Shown: positions 4,572-37,302, counted from the first letter of the stretch. The stretch: DNA of 64,000 bases from a virus (IMGVR_UViG_3300036770_002726:541-64540); one strand, 5' to 3'. Notes: generated by a model from the letters alone, not told the origin. A program made the numbers and translations.

Positions 4572-5204
4572 ATGAAAGTATTGAATTTATATGCTGGTAT
4601 TGGTGGGAATAGAAAATATTGGGAAGATGTTGAAGTAACAGCGGTTGAATATAATGAAGAAATCGCAAATGTATATCAACATTTTTTCCCCAATGATAAT
4701 GTTATTGTTGATGATGCCCACGAATATCTTGCAAAGAATTGGAGAAACTTTGATTTTATATGGAGCAGTCCCCCTTGTCAAAGTCATAGCAAAGTTAGGA
4801 TGATGGCAAGCAAGGGTGGAAGTTATGATTCAGTAATGCCAGATATGAAATTATGGGCGGAGATAATCTTCTTACAAAACTTCACAAAGAATACCAATAT
4901 AAAGTTTGTTGTTGAGAATGTTAAACCCTATTATGAACCATTTGTTAAACCATCATTGAAATTGGGGAGACATTTATTTTGGACAAACTTTGATATTCCA
5001 ATTATTGATATTAAGGATGGTTTGACCCATAATGAGAGGGGAAGTTCAGAGAAGGGTTATTTTGATTTGAGGGTGTTTAAATTAAAACATAGGAAAGACC
5101 AAATTATTAGAAATTGTGTTGATCCCAATGTTGGAAAATATATATTTGACATTGTTAAAAAAAATAATTATAATGGAGAAAAAATTGGTGAGATTTCCCA
5201 ATGA
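4572..5204 (+). CDS. DNA cytosine-C5 methyltransferase
   Basis: LYAGIGG, SPPCQ and ENV motifs. Confidence 0.85.
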   Translation: MKVLNLYAGIGGNRKYWEDVEVTAVEYNEEIANVYQHFFPNDNVIVDDAHEYLAKNWRNFDFIWSSPPCQSHSKVRMMASKGGSYDSVMPDMKLWAEIIFLQNFTKNTNIKFVVENVKPYYEPFVKPSLKLGRHLFWTNFDIPIIDIKDGLTHNERGSSEKGYFDLRVFKLKHRKDQIIRNCVDPNVGKYIFDIVKKNNYNGEKIGEISQ

Positions 5205-5316
5205 AAGTGAGTTCATTGAAATGGAAATCAATATGGATGAATTTGATAATGATAAAACATTTGAACAAGAAATGTTTGGATGGTACAAAGGAATATACAT
5301 TTCAATTAAATTATAA
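5173..5316 (+). CDS. Small hypothetical protein
   Basis: ATG 5173; stop coupled to the next start. Confidence 0.45.
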   Translation: MEKKLVRFPNESEFIEMEINMDEFDNDKTFEQEMFGWYKGIYISIKL

Positions 5317-5747
5317 TGGAACTAATAACAACTTATATTTGTAAATTATCGGACACTGGTGTTCACGATAATATATTTGGTGGAACAATACTTGGTTTGA
5401 TTGACCAAAGTGCTGGTGCTTATGCCGCTCAGATATGTGATACACCAAGAATGGTGACAGTTAAAATTGATGAATTGGTTTTTAAGAATCCAGTTAAAGC
5501 TGGAACAATTATAAAAATATATGGCAAAGTTTTGGAATTTGGTAATACTTCCATAACTTTATATATTGAAGTTAGAAAACATAATGTTTATACTGGTAAA
5601 CAAGAGGTTGTTGTTTCAACTAATATCAAGTTTGTTAGAATTGATGAAGAAGGTTATCCAATTCCAATCTCGGAAAGAGTTAAGATTAGATACAATGAAA
5701 GAATTGAAAAATATGGTAAAGGATTATTAAACCCAGGTGAAAAATAA
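5316..5747 (+). CDS. Acyl-CoA thioesterase (hotdog fold, YciA-like)
   Basis: NIFGG.IL..ID..AG and VTV.ID.L.F..PV motifs. Confidence 0.85.
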   Translation: MELITTYICKLSDTGVHDNIFGGTILGLIDQSAGAYAAQICDTPRMVTVKIDELVFKNPVKAGTIIKIYGKVLEFGNTSITLYIEVRKHNVYTGKQEVVVSTNIKFVRIDEEGYPIPISERVKIRYNERIEKYGKGLLNPGEK

Positions 5748-5748
5748 T

Positions 5749-6207
5749 ATGGAAGATTTTGATTCATTAAATGAGAAACAATTGGAATCCCTTGAAAGGG
5801 GGCTCTCCGATTTAAAAAATAATAGAGTTATGACAAGTGATGAATTTTGGAAGGAATTGTTATCAAAAAAAGAACAACAAGAATTATTGGATGAGGTTTA
5901 TGAGAATTATTGTAAGTCATTTGAAAATCAAACACTAATTGAAGAATACTCTTTTGATACAGACCCAATGACTCAATTTATGTTCATCAACAAATGTAAA
6001 AACGACAAAGGATTCTCTGAAAAGTGGGGATTGAAAATTGAGGAACGAGAGTTGAGTGAACTAGAGAGAATGAATATAGGTAAGAGTAAAGGAATGTGGA
6101 AAGAGTTTCAATTTGGCAATGTTCACGAACCATGTAATGAAAGAGGAATACCCACCAAACTAATCACAATAAAATACAACGATAAAACAATAGAAAGTTA
6201 TGAATAA
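5749..6207 (+). CDS. ThyA-insert-related mini-protein, copy 1 (extra N-terminal segment)
   Basis: QQELLDEVYENY...FINKCK...FSEKWGLKIEERELS...IPTKLITI..KTIESYE. Confidence 0.75.
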   Translation: MEDFDSLNEKQLESLERGLSDLKNNRVMTSDEFWKELLSKKEQQELLDEVYENYCKSFENQTLIEEYSFDTDPMTQFMFINKCKNDKGFSEKWGLKIEERELSELERMNIGKSKGMWKEFQFGNVHEPCNERGIPTKLITIKYNDKTIESYE

Positions 6208-6583
6208 CGAACAACAAGAATTATTGGATGAGGTTTATGAGAATTATAAAAAGGAAATCCTTCGGCAAAGGAAAATTCAGAGAGAAAAAGTTCAAAAATT
6301 GAGAAGTCAAGGTAAACGATTAAAGGTTTCTTTGATTGAGTTATTAACAAAAGAAGACTTCATCGACAAATGTAAAACCGATTCTAAGTTCTCTGAAAAG
6401 TGGGGATTAACCATTGAAGAACGAGAGTTGAGTTTGGAAGAGAGAGCAAAATTATACGAACAGAAAACAAATGTAGACACTAATTTCTTTCCTGTTCTTA
6501 GAGAAACATTAAATTTTCACAATATCCCAACCCGACTAATCACAATAACATATCACGATAAAACAATAAAAAGTTATGAATAA
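6200..6583 (+). CDS. ThyA-insert-related mini-protein, copy 2
   Basis: Paralog of 5749 and 6819; RELSLEER...NIPTR shared with ThyA. Confidence 0.8.
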   Translation: MNNEQQELLDEVYENYKKEILRQRKIQREKVQKLRSQGKRLKVSLIELLTKEDFIDKCKTDSKFSEKWGLTIEERELSLEERAKLYEQKTNVDTNFFPVLRETLNFHNIPTRLITITYHDKTIKSYE

Positions 6584-6812
6584 AGAAATTCCTGTAAAAT
6601 ACAATGGTGAGATTGTTGGATACACAACAGATGAAGGAAAGACCATTCAATTTAATGATAGTGATGCCTCAAAAAAGGTAAACGAAATGCTTAATCAAAA
6701 ACAAACGGTGTGGGTTTCATCAAGAGCAATTGGTGAAATTAAAAGTGACAACACTGTTGAATTAAATGAAATTAAATCATACGATATATCACACTTTGGA
6801 AACAAACAATAG
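6576..6812 (+). CDS. Hypothetical protein between junction repeats
   Basis: Starts MNKE inside one repeat and ends at the next; WVSSRAIG motif. Confidence 0.65.
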   Translation: MNKEIPVKYNGEIVGYTTDEGKTIQFNDSDASKKVNEMLNQKQTVWVSSRAIGEIKSDNTVELNEIKSYDISHFGNKQ

Positions 6813-6818
6813 AAAGTT

Positions 6819-7295
6819 ATGAATAAAGAACAACAAGAATTATTGGATGCAGCATACGAGAATTACACGAAAACTTTGGTAGGTTCTATTACTTTCTCGG
6901 AAAGAGAAAAAAATTTCAAATCAAATGGGATTGAATTTAACTCAGGTTATCCAAATTATACCCACTATACACAAGAAGAATTCATCAATAAATGTAAAAC
7001 TGAGGATGCACTATCCTTAAAGTGGAGAGAAGAATATAGAAACCTCCAATATGGCTCCAAAGAAGAAATAGAACACTTAAGTAAACATTATACATCCAAT
7101 ACAGAGTTCTCTAAAAAGTGGAGATTAAAGATTGAAGAACGAGAGTTGAGTTTGGAAGAGAGAGCAACAATTTGGGATAATACACATAATCCAGCAGGTA
7201 ACATATTCACACATAACCAATATGACGAGAATAATATACCTAAACGAGCAATCTCATTAAGATACAACCATAAAACAATAACGAGTTATGAATGA
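6819..7295 (+). CDS. ThyA-insert-related mini-protein, copy 3
   Basis: TQEEFINKCK...RELSLEER...NIPKRAISL, closest to ThyA NIPIRAISL. Confidence 0.8.
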   Translation: MNKEQQELLDAAYENYTKTLVGSITFSEREKNFKSNGIEFNSGYPNYTHYTQEEFINKCKTEDALSLKWREEYRNLQYGSKEEIEHLSKHYTSNTEFSKKWRLKIEERELSLEERATIWDNTHNPAGNIFTHNQYDENNIPKRAISLRYNHKTITSYE

Positions 7296-7527
7296 AGAAT
7301 TTTCACCAAAAAGAAGCCTGTCTGACCGATATTCAATTGAAAGTATGGCTAAGTCCCAGGGACTTTCAGTAGAAGAATTTCAAACCAGCATTAAAGAAGA
7401 ATTTAAAATAAAGAACGACTTAATTCAAAAGTACTTAGATAAAGGTTATACTCAAGAGCAAGCCGAAACCACTGCACTCAGAATACTGTATATTCCATCG
7501 TTCGGAGGAGGAACCTTTAAAGATTAA
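7288..7527 (+). CDS. Hypothetical protein between junction repeats
   Basis: MNEE start inside a repeat variant. Confidence 0.6.
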   Translation: MNEEFSPKRSLSDRYSIESMAKSQGLSVEEFQTSIKEEFKIKNDLIQKYLDKGYTQEQAETTALRILYIPSFGGGTFKD

Positions 7528-7540
7528 ACAATAGAAAGTT

Positions 7541-8011
7541 ATGAATAAAGAAAAATACATAGGTCTCATCTTAGATGAAAGAAATGACCATTATACTATT
7601 GGTTATAGAGAAACCACCGATTTTGAAACTTTAAAAAAGTGGAAGGAAGAAATGTTAGAATGTTCTAACGTTGAAGATTGTAAAATACTAAAAGTTGAAG
7701 AGATAGAAAGAGAGAAACTTGACATAGAACATAATGTTGTTAATAAACAATCACTCTACTCAGAAATTGAAACACTTATTATTAAGTGGAATATTGATGG
7801 AACTAAAACAGCAGGTTCTCTCACTAGAGATATAATGAAATTACTAAATGTCACATTAAAAAATAAAGCAAAAGAATCAGCAGAATATAAAAAAATCTTC
7901 AAGGAAATCAAACCAAATAGGCTGATAAGTACTGAATACGGTTCAGGAATAATTGATTCTCAAACAGGTGAAGTTACAATTACACCATATCCAACAATAA
8001 AAGACTTATAA
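7541..8011 (+). CDS. Hypothetical protein
   Basis: MNKE start inside an exact junction repeat. Confidence 0.65.
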   Translation: MNKEKYIGLILDERNDHYTIGYRETTDFETLKKWKEEMLECSNVEDCKILKVEEIEREKLDIEHNVVNKQSLYSEIETLIIKWNIDGTKTAGSLTRDIMKLLNVTLKNKAKESAEYKKIFKEIKPNRLISTEYGSGIIDSQTGEVTITPYPTIKDL

Positions 8012-8031
8012 AGAATTAAATACAATGAACC

Positions 8032-8220
8032 ATGAATAACGAACAAAAAACACTTCTATCTAAGTTGCTAAAAGCATCTCAAGAAATTGATAGAACACCT
8101 AAAGCTAATTACGTACATCTTTCAGAAGAGTTCATCCAAAAACAAGCGGATGAAAAAGGTATTACCTTGGATGAGATGGTAGAAATAATCAAAAACGAAT
8201 TAAAACCAAACAATAACTAA
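8032..8220 (+). CDS. Hypothetical protein
   Basis: MNNEQK start resembling the mini-protein starts. Confidence 0.55.
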   Translation: MNNEQKTLLSKLLKASQEIDRTPKANYVHLSEEFIQKQADEKGITLDEMVEIIKNELKPNNN

Positions 8221-8223
8221 GTT

Positions 8224-8376
8224 ATGAAAATAAATAAAGAAGAACTATATAAACTCTATATGGAGTGGATAGATAAAGTTACCAAAGAATGTGATTGGAA
8301 AACTTCATTTACACCAGAAGAAATAGTTGGAGCAATTGCTACCATTTTAGAAAATAATCCAAATTTATATGAGTAA
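8224..8376 (+). CDS. Small hypothetical protein (50 aa, not in ORF track)
   Basis: MKINKEELYKLYMEW...NLYE*, starts in a junction variant. Confidence 0.55.
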   Translation: MKINKEELYKLYMEWIDKVTKECDWKTSFTPEEIVGAIATILENNPNLYE

Positions 8377-8530
8377 AGAAGATACATATTCAATACCTAT
8401 TTACGAAAACGGAGTGAAGACAGAATGGAGTGTTGATGGAATAATTGGTGATGAGAAATACTTTAAATTATTAGAGTTGGGTAATGGGAAAGATTTACCT
8501 GATATGATTAACATAACAACGAAACAATAG
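8369..8530 (+). CDS. Small hypothetical protein (53 aa, not in ORF track)
   Basis: MSKEDTYSIPIYENG...; overlaps the previous stop. Confidence 0.5.
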   Translation: MSKEDTYSIPIYENGVKTEWSVDGIIGDEKYFKLLELGNGKDLPDMINITTKQ

Positions 8531-8536
8531 ATTAGT

Positions 8537-8653
8537 ATGAATAAACTAGATAAACTAATAGAATGGGTTAGTTGGGAAACATCCACACACTACTGCATTT
8601 CTCAATGGGATGTAGCCTCACCAATTAAAAGCAAATGGATTAAAAAAAAATGA
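8537..8653 (+). CDS. Small ORF starting with the same MNKLDK as ThyA
   Basis: ATGAATAAACTAGATAAA vs thyA ATGAACAAACTAGATAAA. Confidence 0.4.
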   Translation: MNKLDKLIEWVSWETSTHYCISQWDVASPIKSKWIKKK

Positions 8654-8904
8654 GCAGTCAATACCGAAAAATAAAATATGAATCAGAGGGACCATATGGT
8701 TCAGTTGAAGAAAAATACTTATACATTCATTCACATAGTACGGTAGATGTGTATAACATTTATGATAATAATGGTGAACATCTATTTTCTTTTTCAGAAA
8801 CTGGATTTGATATGGGTAGTGCCTTAGCTGTTGCCTTTACAAATTGGCAAGACCCAAGAATGGAAATAGTTTCTCATAACGAATGGAAAAATAAAATAAA
8901 ATGA
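8650..8904 (+). CDS. Hypothetical protein
   Basis: ORF coupled to the thyA start. Confidence 0.6.
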   Translation: MSSQYRKIKYESEGPYGSVEEKYLYIHSHSTVDVYNIYDNNGEHLFSFSETGFDMGSALAVAFTNWQDPRMEIVSHNEWKNKIK

Positions 8905-9983
8905 ACAAACTAGATAAAGATTACCAAGCACTCCTACAAGACATACTTGATAATGGAGTAACAAAAGAAACAAGAAATGGAGGAACTATCTCAGTATTCG
9001 GTAGACAAATTCGTCATCGAATGAGTGATGGATTTCCATTATTAACTACCAAAAAAATGTATTTTAAAGGTATTGTAACCGAACTCCTTTGGTTTTTAAG
9101 GGGTGATACAAATATCAAATACCTTGTTGATAATGGCTGTCATATTTGGGATGGGGATGCGTTTAAATCATTTAAAAGTAAACAATACCCTCATTCATCT
9201 GGATTGAATGAGTTTGAAATGGAAGACTTTATCATTGCTATAAAAAATGGACATTATAAAGAGTATAATCTCGGTGAATTAGGTCCCATCTATGGTAAGC
9301 AATGGAGAAGTTGGAATAAAAAGAAAATGTATCTATCGACAGATGGTTCATACGAAAACATTTATGATGAGGCTGACCAAACAGTTATAGACCAAATCGC
9401 AAACCTAATCAACGACCTTAAAACAAATCCTGATTCAAGACGTAATAAAGTTTCAGCTTGGAATGTTGGAGAACTTGAAGAAATGACACTTCCACCATGT
9501 CATACAGATTTTCAAGTTTATACAAGAGAGTTGAGTTTGGAAGAGAGGAGAAAATTAGCAAATCACGATTCAGAATTTATTTCACCAATCACAGTAGAAT
9601 CTTGGGATAGAGCTAATATCCCAATACGAGCAATCTCTTTAATGTGGAACCAACGTTCAGTAGATACACCACTTGGATTACCATTCAACATAGCCTCTTA
9701 CGGACTACTATTAACAATAATTGGTAAGATGGTTAATATGGTTCCAGATGAACTTATATGGAATTTGGGAGATACACATATCTACTTAAATCAAGTTGAT
9801 GGTGTTAAAGAACAATTAACAAGAGAACCATATCCCCTACCAACATTAAAGATTAATTCAGGTAATGAGAATTGGCATTTGTTAGAGTTAGATGAAGTAT
9901 TGAATACATTAGACCCAGACATTACATTCAAGGTTGAAAACTATCAATCACACCCTAAAATATATTTTCCATTGTCAAATTAA
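8901..9983 (+). CDS. thyA: Thymidylate synthase with extra insertions
   Basis: FPLLTTKK, ELLWFLRG, GPIYGKQWR, DSRR, LPPCH (catalytic Cys), QRSVD..GLPFNIASY and GDTHIY motifs. Confidence 0.97.
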   Translation: MNKLDKDYQALLQDILDNGVTKETRNGGTISVFGRQIRHRMSDGFPLLTTKKMYFKGIVTELLWFLRGDTNIKYLVDNGCHIWDGDAFKSFKSKQYPHSSGLNEFEMEDFIIAIKNGHYKEYNLGELGPIYGKQWRSWNKKKMYLSTDGSYENIYDEADQTVIDQIANLINDLKTNPDSRRNKVSAWNVGELEEMTLPPCHTDFQVYTRELSLEERRKLANHDSEFISPITVESWDRANIPIRAISLMWNQRSVDTPLGLPFNIASYGLLLTIIGKMVNMVPDELIWNLGDTHIYLNQVDGVKEQLTREPYPLPTLKINSGNENWHLLELDEVLNTLDPDITFKVENYQSHPKIYFPLSN

Positions 9984-36714: not shown

Positions 36715-37302
36715 TCAGTTTATTATTTTAAAAAAGTGTTTGTAACAAGTTTTTCTAATAGTTCCTTTACCTCCATTATCTAATTTTCTACCTCTCAGAC
36801 AATTTGATATCATCATCCTGACATTTCTTGATTTACCTTTTGCAAATCCATTATTAATTAAGTAATTAGCCCCATCAATTAAACTCTCAAATATAAATAT
36901 CTCGTTACTTTCAATATTTGTTAATGAATACTTGGAAAAATTATTATTTTTTTGTTGATTGATTTTAGATAATTTAAGTTTTACCGCATCACTTATTATA
37001 TTTCTTCTAGAATCACTAACTAAAGCTAAATTATAACCAAAATTCATTTCATTTGCTTTATAATTATTAATATAATAGTTTTCTTTTAAAATTAAATCTT
37101 TTTCTTCACACAATTCTAATATTTCAAACACAAAGTTTTCAATTCCGTGTTTATTGAATGATTTTTGTAAATAAACATTATCGTGAATACCTTTTTTTAA
37201 CATCCAAAAGTGTTTATATTCTCTACTTGGTAAATCAATTGAACTACCCACATAAACTTTATTATTTTGTTTGTTTAATATTTTGTAAATACCACAATTC
37301 AT
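36715..37302 (-). CDS. GIY-YIG homing endonuclease (free-standing)
   Basis: GIYKI.N..N.KVYVGSS, R..H, H.N..LQ.SFNKHG, F.FEILE, E..YI, GYN. Confidence 0.9.
   Translation of the reverse strand: MNCGIYKILNKQNNKVYVGSSIDLPSREYKHFWMLKKGIHDNVYLQKSFNKHGIENFVFEILELCEEKDLILKENYYINNYKANEMNFGYNLALVSDSRRNIISDAVKLKLSKINQQKNNNFSKYSLTNIESNEIFIFESLIDGANYLINNGFAKGKSRNVRMMISNCLRGRKLDNGGKGTIRKTCYKHFFKIIN

What the first reader, a model, noticed from the sequence alone, without database searches (positions are those of the whole stretch)
5749..9983. Mini-genes that carry ThyA's variable insertion: possible donor cassettes or decoys for thymidylate synthase
Seen: ThyA has a non-canonical insertion between PPCH and QRSVD (RELSLEER-variable-NIPIRAISL). 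Three upstream paralogs (5749, 6200, 6819) contain the same bordered segment with different middles. The 22-mer GAGAGTTGAGTTTGGAAGAGAG is identical at 6423, 7141 and thyA 9526. The right border AATATACCTAAACGAGCAATCTCATTAA (7233) matches thyA 9615 at 24/28. The paralogs also have AYENY...E(D/E)FI.KCK...FSEKWG, which aligns loosely with ThyA's first insert (DAFKSF...EDFIIAIK...LGELG), and their starts (QQELLDE) resemble ThyA's YQALLQD. They lack all catalytic motifs. Established: L. casei-type ThyA has a small-domain insert ending FAAKYGDLG. Inference: these genes are ThyA surface inserts stitched together without the enzyme core. They could be gene-conversion donors that swap ThyA loops, or decoys/mimics that titrate a host defence sensor or binding partner of phage ThyA.
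Basis: partly seen in the sequence, partly recalled or inferred. Interest (0 to 1): 0.88.

Follow-up and report, generated by a model that had tools for sequence, protein, structure and literature searches.

The report
Core-less ThyA mini-genes swapping cassettes
Three small genes upstream of this phage's thymidylate synthase are stand-alone copies of the enzyme's extra surface segments, and they trade variable pieces with the enzyme by recombination, which is unusual for a housekeeping enzyme.

Summary
The three ORFs (5737/5749-6207, 6200-6583, 6819-7295) are paralogues. They match thyA (8901-9983) only in its phage-specific insertions. The 22-mer is exact three times, with 0 expected. The right border matches at 24/28.

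The mini-proteins belong to an undescribed family seen only in viral and metagenome data. It had 1042 hits, no Pfam, PHROG or NCBIfam model, 0 relatives in 185,579 prokaryote species genomes and 0 in 50,697 deposited phage records. Each member is the L. casei-type small domain (V1) joined to a second module (RELSxEER, cassette, NIPxR, beta-strand), without the catalytic core.

Cassettes between the conserved borders are shared across phages between thyA site V2, thyA site V3 and mini-genes. The window's own ThyA loop recurs in a mini-protein from another sample. The cassette of mini 6200 recurs in two foreign ThyAs. DNA homology covers only border, cassette and border.

In relatives, thyA is a homing-endonuclease hot spot (12 of 33 loci), a plausible driver of exchange.

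Recombinational exchange is well supported. Its direction and the proteins' function (decoy, partner mimic or by-product) remain open. This scan reported the same phenomenon earlier on other genomes. Four literature searches found no description.

The parts
5737..6207 (+). Mini-gene 1 (156 aa from GTG 5737; first ATG at 5749). It is a family member with a 43-aa N-terminal extension. Its left border ERELSELER lies at about 6047.
   Evidence: mini HMM E 2e-48
6200..6583 (+). Mini-gene 2 (127 aa), the typical family form. V1 is 6248-6346, the left border 6419-6445 (contains the 22-mer at 6423), the V2 cassette 6446-6523 and the right border plus beta-strands 6524-6580.
   Evidence: E 1e-70; AF2 pLDDT 90.7
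6819..7295 (+). Mini-gene 3 (158 aa), with an internal duplication of the KT..KW block (6981-7028 / 7077-7124). The 22-mer is at 7141, the V2 cassette at about 7164-7235 and the right border starts at 7233.
   Evidence: (D4, D5, D6)
6185..6207 (+). 23-nt junction repeat AAACAATAGAAAGTTATGAATAA. It holds the mini-gene 3' end (..KTIESYE stop) overlapping the next ATG. Further copies are at 6561-6583 (1 mismatch), 6804-6826 and 7526-7548. The last two follow genes that are not mini-genes.
   Evidence: D1; 4 matches, 0 expected
8901..9983 (+). thyA, an intact long-form thymidylate synthase (360 aa).
   Evidence: (catalytic columns invariant)
9159..9281 (+). thyA V1, the small-domain insertion (aa 87-127). 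It is diverged in this phage.
9315..9389 (+). thyA V1b, a variable segment after QWRSW (aa 139-163). Other metagenome contigs replace it.
   Evidence: joints 9314->9387
9525..9548 (+). thyA V2 left border RELSLEER, containing the 22-mer (9526-9547).
9549..9617 (+). thyA V2 cassette (aa 217-239). It is the same cassette type as the V2 of mini-protein P0054 from another sample.
   Evidence: joints 9536->9615/9626
9615..9642 (+). thyA V2 right border (NIPIRAISL), 24/28 identical to 7233-7260.
   Evidence: (D6)

Best explanation
The three mini-genes belong to a large phage-only family that descends from thyA. Each encodes only the two accessory pieces of the phage enzyme. The first is the L. casei-type small domain (conserved AYxNY, variable V1, conserved EEFINKxKTDxEFxxKWG). 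The second is a module inserted in the beta-hairpin after the catalytic Cys (RELSxEER, variable cassette, NIPxR), kept together with the two flanking core strands. The catalytic core between and around these pieces is missing. The result is a compact folded protein that reproduces ThyA's accessory lobe. In both thyA and the mini-genes, conserved borders of about 20-30 nt frame hypervariable cassettes. Homologous recombination or gene conversion at those borders moves cassettes among thyA site V2, thyA site V3 (absent in this window) and mini-genes. This happens within a genome and between co-infecting phages. Double-strand breaks made by the homing endonucleases that crowd thyA in this phage group probably stimulate it. 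Shown here: descent from thyA, the architecture, cassette sharing, homology tracts limited to the borders, and purifying selection. Inferred: the recombination mechanism and its trigger, and that the mini-proteins are made. My best guess for function (about 35%) is that the mini-proteins act as free copies of the ThyA lobe and bind whatever that lobe binds, as competitors, decoys or adaptors. On this view each cassette type is a distinct binding specificity that is kept once it has formed.
For: Paralogy and family. Three copies lie in the window. The protein database gave 1042 hits with E<=0.01 among 1052 candidates, and none of the 120 listed has a Pfam domain. In viral contigs, 129 of 588 pattern matches encode relatives, often in tandem arrays of up to 8 ORFs (L021).

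Collinear homology. Mini 6200 aligns to the immuto phage ThyA at 47-69 versus 119-141 (E 2e-6) and at 69-126 versus 212-278 (E 5e-6). Mini-HMM positions 71-129 and 129-185 hit ThyAs in two pieces. All 120 listed longer proteins (362 aa or more) that match the mini profile carry PF00303 and no other Pfam family.

Fold. AF2 gives pLDDT 90.7 and the same order of helices and strands as ThyA 107-255. The nearest Atlas structure cluster is viral ThyA (TM by query 0.46, 95 residues aligned). In BFVD, after 3 family members, the next hit is the ThyA of phage 201phi2-1 (E 0.018).

Cassette sharing with borders removed. 10 of 43 unique ThyA V2/V3 cassettes match one of 126 unique mini cassettes at z>5. 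The window's ThyA loop matches P0054 with score 90 against a null of 28+-3. Mini 6200's cassette type occurs in the ThyAs of L083 and P0229. 6 of 26 ThyA V1 segments match a mini V1. One cassette type sits in ThyA V2 (L085), ThyA V3 (L050) and mini-genes (L061, P0073).

Incongruence. The window ThyA is 78% identical to the L046 ThyA, yet their V1 and V2 are unrelated and only L046 has V3.

DNA tracts. ThyA-to-mini homology between genomes spans only border, cassette and border: 98-126 nt at 82-84% identity in the two best pairs (L026/L070, L056/L057) and about 70% over 114-118 nt in two others. In L054, the mini-gene and the adjacent thyA share 129/137 nt.

Borders. Codons are conserved beyond the amino acids: GAG 88% (background 23%), TTG 84% (18%) and AGT 99% (26%) in 122 unique contexts.

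Selection. dN/dS is 0.16 within cassette types (37 pairs) and 0.24-0.44 in scaffold blocks.

Other samples. Contigs of 4 runs keep the thyA core but replace V1b, V2 and the C-terminal variable part.

Homing endonucleases. 12 of 33 non-redundant thyA loci have a GIY-YIG or HNH ORF inside thyA or within 1 kb, and 5 of these split the gene.
Against: No result here shows that the mini-proteins are made or what they bind. No run on record as RNA holds the stretch. The direction of transfer is unknown.

No cassette is shared between thyA and a mini-gene inside the window itself. Only the 22-32-nt border is shared. Most shared cassettes are 16-30% diverged at the DNA level, so those exchanges are old rather than ongoing.

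The strong synonymous conservation at the borders is not unique to them. The thyA block IDQIANLINDLKT is similarly biased. The bias could therefore reflect frequent recombination in any conserved stretch rather than a dedicated signal.

Within cassette types, selection is purifying, not diversifying. This fits an arms race only if variation arises by swapping.

A cassette type repeated within a locus is no rarer than chance (1 of 36 loci, 0.87 expected). There is thus no sign of a selected non-redundant repertoire.

No homing endonuclease lies next to thyA in this window. The only one found is at 36715-37302 on the minus strand.

One search used contigs at 88% likeness or more, so its joints come from related phages, not necessarily from this strain.
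Confidence: 0.8

Rival explanations
1. Decoy or anti-defence reading. A host factor recognises or inhibits the accessory lobe of phage ThyA. The phage escapes by swapping loop cassettes and by flooding the cell with core-less copies that soak up the factor.
For: Hypervariable cassettes sit on a strongly conserved scaffold. The genes form multi-copy tandem arrays. The family is seen only in viral and metagenome data. Among 169 unique cassettes there are 104 cassette clusters.
Against: No defence gene, sensor or partner was identified. Selection within cassette types is purifying (dN/dS 0.16). Shared cassettes are old. The cultured relative, immuto, has an insert-bearing ThyA but no mini-gene, so the lobe can do without free copies.
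Confidence: 0.2
2. The mini-proteins act on ThyA itself. They keep two strands that, from recall, belong to the sheet forming the ThyA dimer interface. They might therefore cap a phage or host ThyA monomer as a regulator or dominant-negative subunit. Alternatively, they might help reassemble endonuclease-split ThyA halves through the small-domain helices.
For: The strands equivalent to FQVYT and AISLMWNQRS are retained and strongly conserved (LKIEE, KLITITYNDKTIESYE). The mini-genes lie on the same strand as thyA in all 33 loci that hold both. Split ThyA halves in L013, L054 and L069 end and begin with copies of the small-domain helices.
Against: The exposed face of the mini strands is polar (K, E, T), as read from the sequence. 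The conserved mini residues differ from those of ThyA at the same positions. Arrays of up to 8 diverse copies are not expected for a simple regulator.
Confidence: 0.12
3. Neutral or selfish by-products. Endonuclease-driven breakage and repair around thyA keeps spawning truncated, internally deleted thyA copies. These persist for a while and recombine but have no function of their own.
For: The region is visibly rearranged. The junction 23-mer occurs behind unrelated genes. Fusions exist, such as P0126 (ThyA joined to a mini) and P0121 (a mini joined to a neighbour's C-terminus). Endonucleases lie at 12 of 33 thyA loci.
Against: The same deletion architecture and the same start and stop are conserved in more than 1000 proteins at 90% clustering. 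Length variation stays in frame. Scaffold dN/dS is 0.24-0.44 and cassette dN/dS is 0.16. The AF2 fold is confident.
Confidence: 0.12
4. Silent-cassette bank. The mini-genes matter only as DNA, as donors for one-way gene conversion into thyA, as in pilE/pilS or vlsE.
For: Conserved borders frame variable segments. The borders are conserved at synonymous sites. Tracts are limited to border, cassette and border.
Against: The donors are complete ORFs with their own conserved start, N-terminal block and C-terminal block under purifying selection. Pure DNA donors do not need this. No cassette is duplicated between thyA and a mini-gene in 35 of 36 loci. L054 shares V1, not V2.
Confidence: 0.08

Closest known systems
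Long-form (Lactobacillus casei / Enterococcus faecalis / S. aureus type) thymidylate synthase with the roughly 50-residue small domain (PDB 1lca, 3uwl, 4dq1)
   Same: The phage ThyA V1 aligns with the small domain of these enzymes and ends in the same xxFAxKxGxLG motif. The core is a normal ThyA.
   Different: No solved ThyA covers the V2 or V3 modules; the alignment breaks at FQVYTRELS and resumes at WNQRS. No stand-alone small-domain protein is known. Cellular ThyAs closest to the phage enzyme lack the inserts: 78 of the 80 best loci span 696-819 nt.
Segmental gene conversion from cassette banks (Neisseria pilE/pilS, Borrelia vlsE; named from recall)
   Same: Variable segments are framed by short conserved borders. 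Several partial paralogues lie next to one full-length gene. Cassettes are shared between them.
   Different: The target is a metabolic enzyme of a phage, not a surface antigen. The paralogues are complete, conserved ORFs. Direction and frequency of transfer are unknown. Exchange is seen mainly between genomes.
Homing-endonuclease-driven co-conversion and split genes in T4-type phages (td intron/I-TevI; mobE in Aeh1 nrdA). I read passages of PMC2988022.
   Same: Free-standing GIY-YIG/HNH genes with NUMOD and I-TevI-type DNA-binding domains lie inside or beside thyA in relatives and split it into two ORFs. The paper describes co-conversion of flanking sequence.
   Different: No group I intron was found at Rfam gathering scores in the 5 split loci. 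No endonuclease flanks thyA in this window. A link between cleavage and cassette exchange is inferred, not shown.
Insert-bearing ThyAs of jumbo phages (201phi2-1, Erwinia RisingSun, Aeromonas PS1/D3; earlier scan notes on a Klebsiella jumbo phage)
   Same: These are phage ThyAs enlarged by inserted modules. They are weak structural neighbours of the mini model (E 0.018-1).
   Different: The sequence relationship to this family was not tested here. The hits are marginal.

Membership tests
Thymidylate synthase ThyA (PF00303 / TIGR03284): window gene 8901-9983 | Profile match above the curated cutoffs | tested here: met
   PF00303 scores 299.8 bits against a cutoff of 24.3. TIGR03284 scores 285.5 bits against a cutoff of 108.35.
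Thymidylate synthase ThyA (PF00303 / TIGR03284): window gene 8901-9983 | Catalytic Cys in PPCH, the dUMP-binding Arg residues, the QRSxD motif, Asn of PFNIASY, and His/Tyr of GDxHxY. The roles of these residues are recalled. | tested here: met
   C200, H201, R25, R180, R181, R252, S253, D255, H293 and Y295 are invariant in 23 phage ThyAs, and N263 is nearly invariant.
Thymidylate synthase ThyA (PF00303 / TIGR03284): window gene 8901-9983 | dTMP synthesis activity | not testable with these tools
   This needs an enzyme assay.
Thymidylate synthase ThyA: the three mini-proteins | Profile match to PF00303 or NCBIfam ThyA models, and presence of the catalytic motifs | tested here: not met
   There is no PF00303 hit at E<=0.1 and no NCBIfam hit. 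No PPCH, DSRR or QRSxD motif occurs in the sequences. The mini-proteins are ThyA-derived but are not thymidylate synthases.
Long-form ThyA small domain (L. casei type) | Insertion after IWDxxA that ends in FAxKxGxLG and aligns with the small domain of solved long-form enzymes | tested here: met
   The L030 phage ThyA aligns through its V1 with 3uwl and 4dq1. The window ThyA and the mini-proteins occupy the same columns or profile positions.
Silent-cassette gene-conversion systems (pilE/pilS, vlsE type) | Donor copies are partial and unexpressed | tested here: not met
   The mini-genes are complete ORFs with conserved start, stop and end blocks. Expression itself was not measured.
Silent-cassette gene-conversion systems (pilE/pilS, vlsE type) | Variable segments framed by conserved borders and shared between the bank and the full-length gene | tested here: met
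Silent-cassette gene-conversion systems (pilE/pilS, vlsE type) | Ongoing one-way transfer within one lineage | tested here: inconclusive
   Contigs of 4 runs show replaced V segments, but at 88% likeness or more they may be other phages. One recent intragenomic tract exists in L054.
Homing-endonuclease-invaded / split gene | Endonuclease ORF inside or abutting the gene | tested here: not met
   This applies to the window: none lies near thyA. The feature is met in 12 of 33 related loci.

The most novel reading that the evidence does not exclude
thyA and its array of core-less paralogues form a phage cassette-variation system. A display lobe on an essential nucleotide enzyme is re-tipped by border-guided recombination, promoted by endonuclease cuts. 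The lobe also exists as free copies. It meets a variable host factor, such as a defence sensor or an inhibitor of phage dTMP supply. That would place an arms-race interface on a metabolic enzyme. A second strand of this reading is that the small-domain helices are a natural self-assembling tag that lets endonuclease-split ThyA halves find each other.
Probability: 0.2. Interest if true: 0.9.

Novelty: new variant of a known kind. Interest (0 to 1): 0.72.

Why it matters
Thymidylate synthase is among the most conserved and best-studied enzymes. Here, a whole group of uncultured aquatic phages treats three or four of its surface segments as exchangeable cassettes. These phages also keep thousands of core-less paralogues built only from those segments.

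If the lobe binds a host or phage partner, this would be a new kind of variable interface on a metabolic enzyme and a new family of small phage effectors. If it does not, it is a clean natural example of domain excision, domain insertion at two sites and border-guided cassette exchange. That would be useful for protein engineering, as it marks loop-permissive sites in ThyA and a possible split-protein tag. It would also help in understanding how homing endonucleases shape phage genes.

The family has no model in Pfam, PHROGs or NCBIfam, so it is currently annotated only as hypothetical.

Tried and rejected
Structure searches of the mini model against solved structures:
- Foldseek against pdb gave 0 matches at E<=0.001.
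- VIA-align wide gave a best Z of 4.4 and none at 5 or above. The rows were dominated by the long N-terminal helix.
- This shows no known fold for the free protein, but it is not evidence of a new fold.

Complex prediction of ThyA (A3) with mini 6200 (A2) returned no answer (score 0.03, mark 0.32). The controls were not run. It counts neither for nor against binding.

The Atlas and BFVD neighbour lists stand in for it.

Expression and population data:
- No RNA holder is listed among the 20 runs.
- Only contigs, not reads, could be laid, so loop heterogeneity within one strain could not be judged.
- The joint 9536->6443 in run X4 is ambiguous because the 22-mer is identical at both places.

Tests that gave no signal:
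- A non-redundant repertoire per genome is not supported (1 of 36 loci observed, 0.87 expected).
- A border-specific DNA signal is only partly supported, because a thyA core block shows similar codon bias.
- Group I introns in the split thyA genes: none at Rfam gathering scores.
- A diversity-generating retroelement was considered and rejected on the look of the data only. Cassettes differ by unrelated sequence and length, and the aligned pairs differ by several kinds of substitution. No reverse transcriptase search was run.
- A programmed deletion or shufflon is rejected by reasoning. All repeats are direct, so reciprocal recombination between a mini border and the thyA border would delete the 5' half of thyA.

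Database and literature searches:
- Pfam, PHROGs and NCBIfam gave nothing for the mini-proteins above noise. The one PHROG hit (Rz-like spanin, E 0.005) covers the charged helix only.
- tblastn of mini 6200 against 50,697 deposited phage records found no match.
- The cultured phage immuto has only its thyA.
- Four literature searches listed no paper on core-less ThyA paralogues or ThyA cassette exchange. I saw only listings and abstract starts for these, plus passages of PMC2988022. Supplementary files were not consulted.

Full report
SETTING. The window is an AT-rich (25-32% GC) stretch with its genes on the + strand. It is 64,000 of the 64,540 bases of an IMG/VR virus record rated 22% complete. 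The nearest deposited relative is Flavobacterium phage vB_FspM_immuto, a 160-kb phage at about 70% DNA identity over thyA and a thioesterase gene. The finding covers a 4HBT thioesterase gene (5316-5747), an array of small ORFs and thyA (8901-9983).

OBSERVATION. The 22-mer is exact at 6423, 7141 and 9526 and occurs nowhere else, with 0 expected. The right border at 7233 matches 9615 at 24/28. The three ORFs at 5737/5749, 6200 and 6819 align over their whole length with 44 invariant columns. ThyA is a full thymidylate synthase by Pfam and NCBIfam, and every catalytic column is conserved. BLASTP joins mini 6819 (103-156) to ThyA 204-256 at E 8e-7.

The first-insert likeness is not significant against the window's own, diverged V1. 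The likeness of the mini start to the ThyA N-terminus has no statistical support.

WHAT THE MINI-GENES ARE. Against the immuto phage ThyA, mini 6200 gives two collinear matches. Residues 47-69 match ThyA 119-141, and residues 69-126 match ThyA 212-278 (E 2e-6 and 5e-6). A profile of 40 family members (A2) hits phage ThyAs in the same two pieces. Profile positions 71-129 cover ThyA from DAYKNY to KWG. Positions 129-185 cover FQVYT-RELSxEER ... NIPTRAISLMWNQRS.

The first piece is the small domain of long-form thymidylate synthases. The phage V1 aligns with that domain in 3uwl and 4dq1, and L. casei 1lca is among the hits. The second piece has no counterpart in any solved ThyA. It also has none in the closest cellular ThyAs, where 78 of the 80 best loci span 696-819 nt. 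A ThyA in a Flavobacteriaceae MAG has V1 but reads FQCYVRDGKYLSLMWNQRS at the V2 site, which shows the state without the insert.

The mini-proteins are therefore ThyA with the N-terminal core, the segment from GELGPIYG to PPCH, and everything after the second strand removed. They give no ThyA profile hit and have no catalytic motif.

AF2 predicts a confident compact fold (pLDDT 90.7). Its helices and strands come in the same order as ThyA residues 107-255 in the ThyA model. The Atlas's own model of this protein has a viral ThyA cluster as nearest structural neighbour (TM by query 0.46, 95 residues aligned). In BFVD, the first non-family hit is a jumbo-phage ThyA (E 0.018).

HOW WIDESPREAD.
- The protein database gave 1042 proteins at E<=0.01, all unnamed or 'hypothetical' and without Pfam domains among the 120 listed.
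- In IMG/VR, 129 confirmed relatives were found among 588 pattern matches, often on 100-300-kb contigs.
- Among 185,579 prokaryote species genomes, 145 pattern matches yielded 0 relatives.
- There was no tblastn match in 50,697 deposited phage records.
- The immuto phage has only its thyA.
- All 120 listed longer proteins (362 aa or more) that match the mini profile are ThyAs, so the module was not seen in any other enzyme.
- In the fetched loci the mini-genes form tandem arrays (up to 8 ORFs in L021). thyA lies on the same strand within the flanks in 33 non-redundant loci, mostly downstream.

CASSETTES. The family alignment has near-invariant blocks: MNKEQQELLDEAYENY; TxEEFINKCKTDxEFSEKWGLKIEERELSxxER; and NIPTKLITITYNDKTIESYE-stop. 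These separate two variable stretches, V1 and V2, which occur in discrete types and in different combinations.

Phage ThyAs are variable at V1, at V1b (after QWRSW) and at V2. In about half of them there is also V3, where the same bordered module (GRELxxEER ... IPxRT-REP) sits in a different loop.

With the borders removed, 10 of 43 unique ThyA V2/V3 cassettes match one of 126 unique mini V2 cassettes at z>5 over 30 shuffles. Nine are clear and one is marginal at z 5.1. The other 33 do not match in this sample. The window's own ThyA cassette is one of the matches: score 90 against a null of 28+-3, to mini-protein P0054. Conversely, the cassette of mini 6200 occurs in the ThyA V2 of L083 and of P0229. 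P0229's V3 also carries a common mini cassette.

One cassette type is found in ThyA V2 (L085), ThyA V3 (L050) and mini-genes (L061, P0073). For V1, 6 of 26 unique ThyA segments match a mini V1. Clustering 169 unique V2/V3 cassettes gives 104 clusters. Eight hold both ThyA and mini members, and two hold both V2 and V3.

Close ThyAs differ in their cassettes. The window and L046 are 78% identical, yet their V1 and V2 are unrelated and only L046 has V3. This is the incongruence expected from recombination.

DNA LEVEL. Between genomes, ThyA-to-mini homology covers only border, cassette and border. The two best pairs give 126 nt at 104 identical and 98 nt at 82 identical. Two further pairs are about 70% identical over 114-118 nt. 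These events are therefore not recent. In L054, a mini-gene and the adjacent thyA share 129 of 137 nt across V1, which is a recent exchange within one genome.

The left border uses unusual codons in 122 unique contexts: GAG 88% against 23% background, TTG 84% against 18%, and AGT 99% against 26%. A thyA core block is similarly biased, so I read this as a mark of frequent recombination or shared descent rather than proof of a dedicated signal.

Cassettes of one type evolve under purifying selection (dN/dS 0.16 over 37 non-independent pairs). Four mini-versus-ThyA pairs give 0.60. Scaffold blocks give 0.24-0.44. Contigs of four metagenome runs keep the thyA core at high depth but replace V1b (9314->9387), V2 (9536->9615/9626) and the C-terminal variable part (9841->9936). 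Some skip the whole array (6205->8930). These are contigs at 88% likeness or more, so they are related phages and not necessarily this strain.

LIKELY DRIVER. In 12 of 33 non-redundant loci with thyA, a GIY-YIG or HNH ORF with NUMOD or I-TevI-type DNA-binding domains lies inside thyA or within 1 kb. In five loci it splits thyA into two ORFs. No group I intron was found at Rfam gathering scores. Homing-endonuclease cuts are repaired with co-conversion of flanking sequence, and split genes of this kind are known in T4-type phages (passages of PMC2988022). I infer, but have not shown, that such breaks promote cassette exchange. This window has no endonuclease gene next to thyA.

FUNCTION. Nothing here shows what the lobe or the mini-proteins bind. 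The conserved ORF architecture, purifying selection and confident fold argue that they are made and used. The rivals are a decoy for a host factor, action on ThyA itself, neutral by-products and a pure DNA donor bank. They are listed with their evidence in the Rival explanations section. My committed reading is that the mini-proteins are free copies of the ThyA accessory lobe that share its partner, with about one chance in three.

RELATION TO EARLIER NOTES. This scan had already reported core-less ThyA mini-proteins with swappable cassettes on other genomes (e1-5374890, e1-6080592, e1-5376319, e1-5825616). It had also reported module-bearing ThyAs in a Klebsiella jumbo phage (e1-1957969). My tests on this window and on freshly fetched loci agree with those notes.

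New here, as far as those short notes show:
- the reciprocal matches for this window's own cassettes;
- the border codon analysis with its control;
- the chance-level test of within-genome redundancy;
- the L054 intragenomic tract;
- the endonuclease association, with matched tails on split ThyA halves;
- the absence of the family from deposited phage records.

Noticed in passing
L013:1997-4248, L054:659-2858, L066:7852-9771, L068:7407-9395, L069:7193-9286: thyA is split into two ORFs by a free-standing GIY-YIG or HNH endonuclease gene. In L013, L054 and L069 the N-half ends in ..LY(E/R)DYLK.. and the C-half starts with ..KEEFL(E/Q)KL(K/R)TDKEFN... These are copies of the two small-domain helices, at two different split positions. 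In L066 and L068 the endonuclease sits inside V1 itself. The helices may serve as an assembly tag for the split enzyme.
   Followed up: partly
L069:1233-1648: A full-length GOLLD RNA (RF02032, 277 bits, E 3.6e-78) lies about 5.5 kb upstream of thyA in a related phage contig.
   Followed up: no
window 6185-6207, 6561-6583, 6804-6826, 7526-7548: A 23-nt junction repeat holds the mini-gene stop and the next ATG. Two copies follow unrelated small genes (6576-6812, 7288-7527) in another frame, as if those genes were dropped into a mini-gene array. Mini-protein P0121 from another sample is fused to the C-terminal part of the 7288-7527 gene type.
   Followed up: partly
P0126 and P0229 (proteins): P0126 is a ThyA read through into a downstream mini-protein (479 aa), and several core motifs are damaged. 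P0229 is a 630-aa ThyA with an extra insertion of roughly 230 aa in the V1/V1b region, not analysed. Both its V2 and V3 carry common mini cassette types.
   Followed up: no
window 6981-7028 and 7077-7124: Mini-gene 3 has an internal duplication of the KT..KW block. The same 32-aa insertion occurs in P0061 and P0066 from other samples.
   Followed up: no
window 36715-37302 (-): This is the only homing-endonuclease-like ORF found in the window (GIY-YIG, Pfam E 3.1e-11). It is on the minus strand, far from thyA.
   Followed up: no
thyA alignment columns for IDQIANLINDLKT (window about 9390-9428): Synonymous codons in this core block are as strongly conserved across 26 phage thyA genes as those at the cassette borders. 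The cause is unknown. It could be a recombination hot spot, an endonuclease target or an RNA element.
   Followed up: no
window 4572-5204: The ORF upstream of the thioesterase has an SPPCQ motif that, from recall, suggests a cytosine-5 DNA methyltransferase. This was not tested.
   Followed up: no
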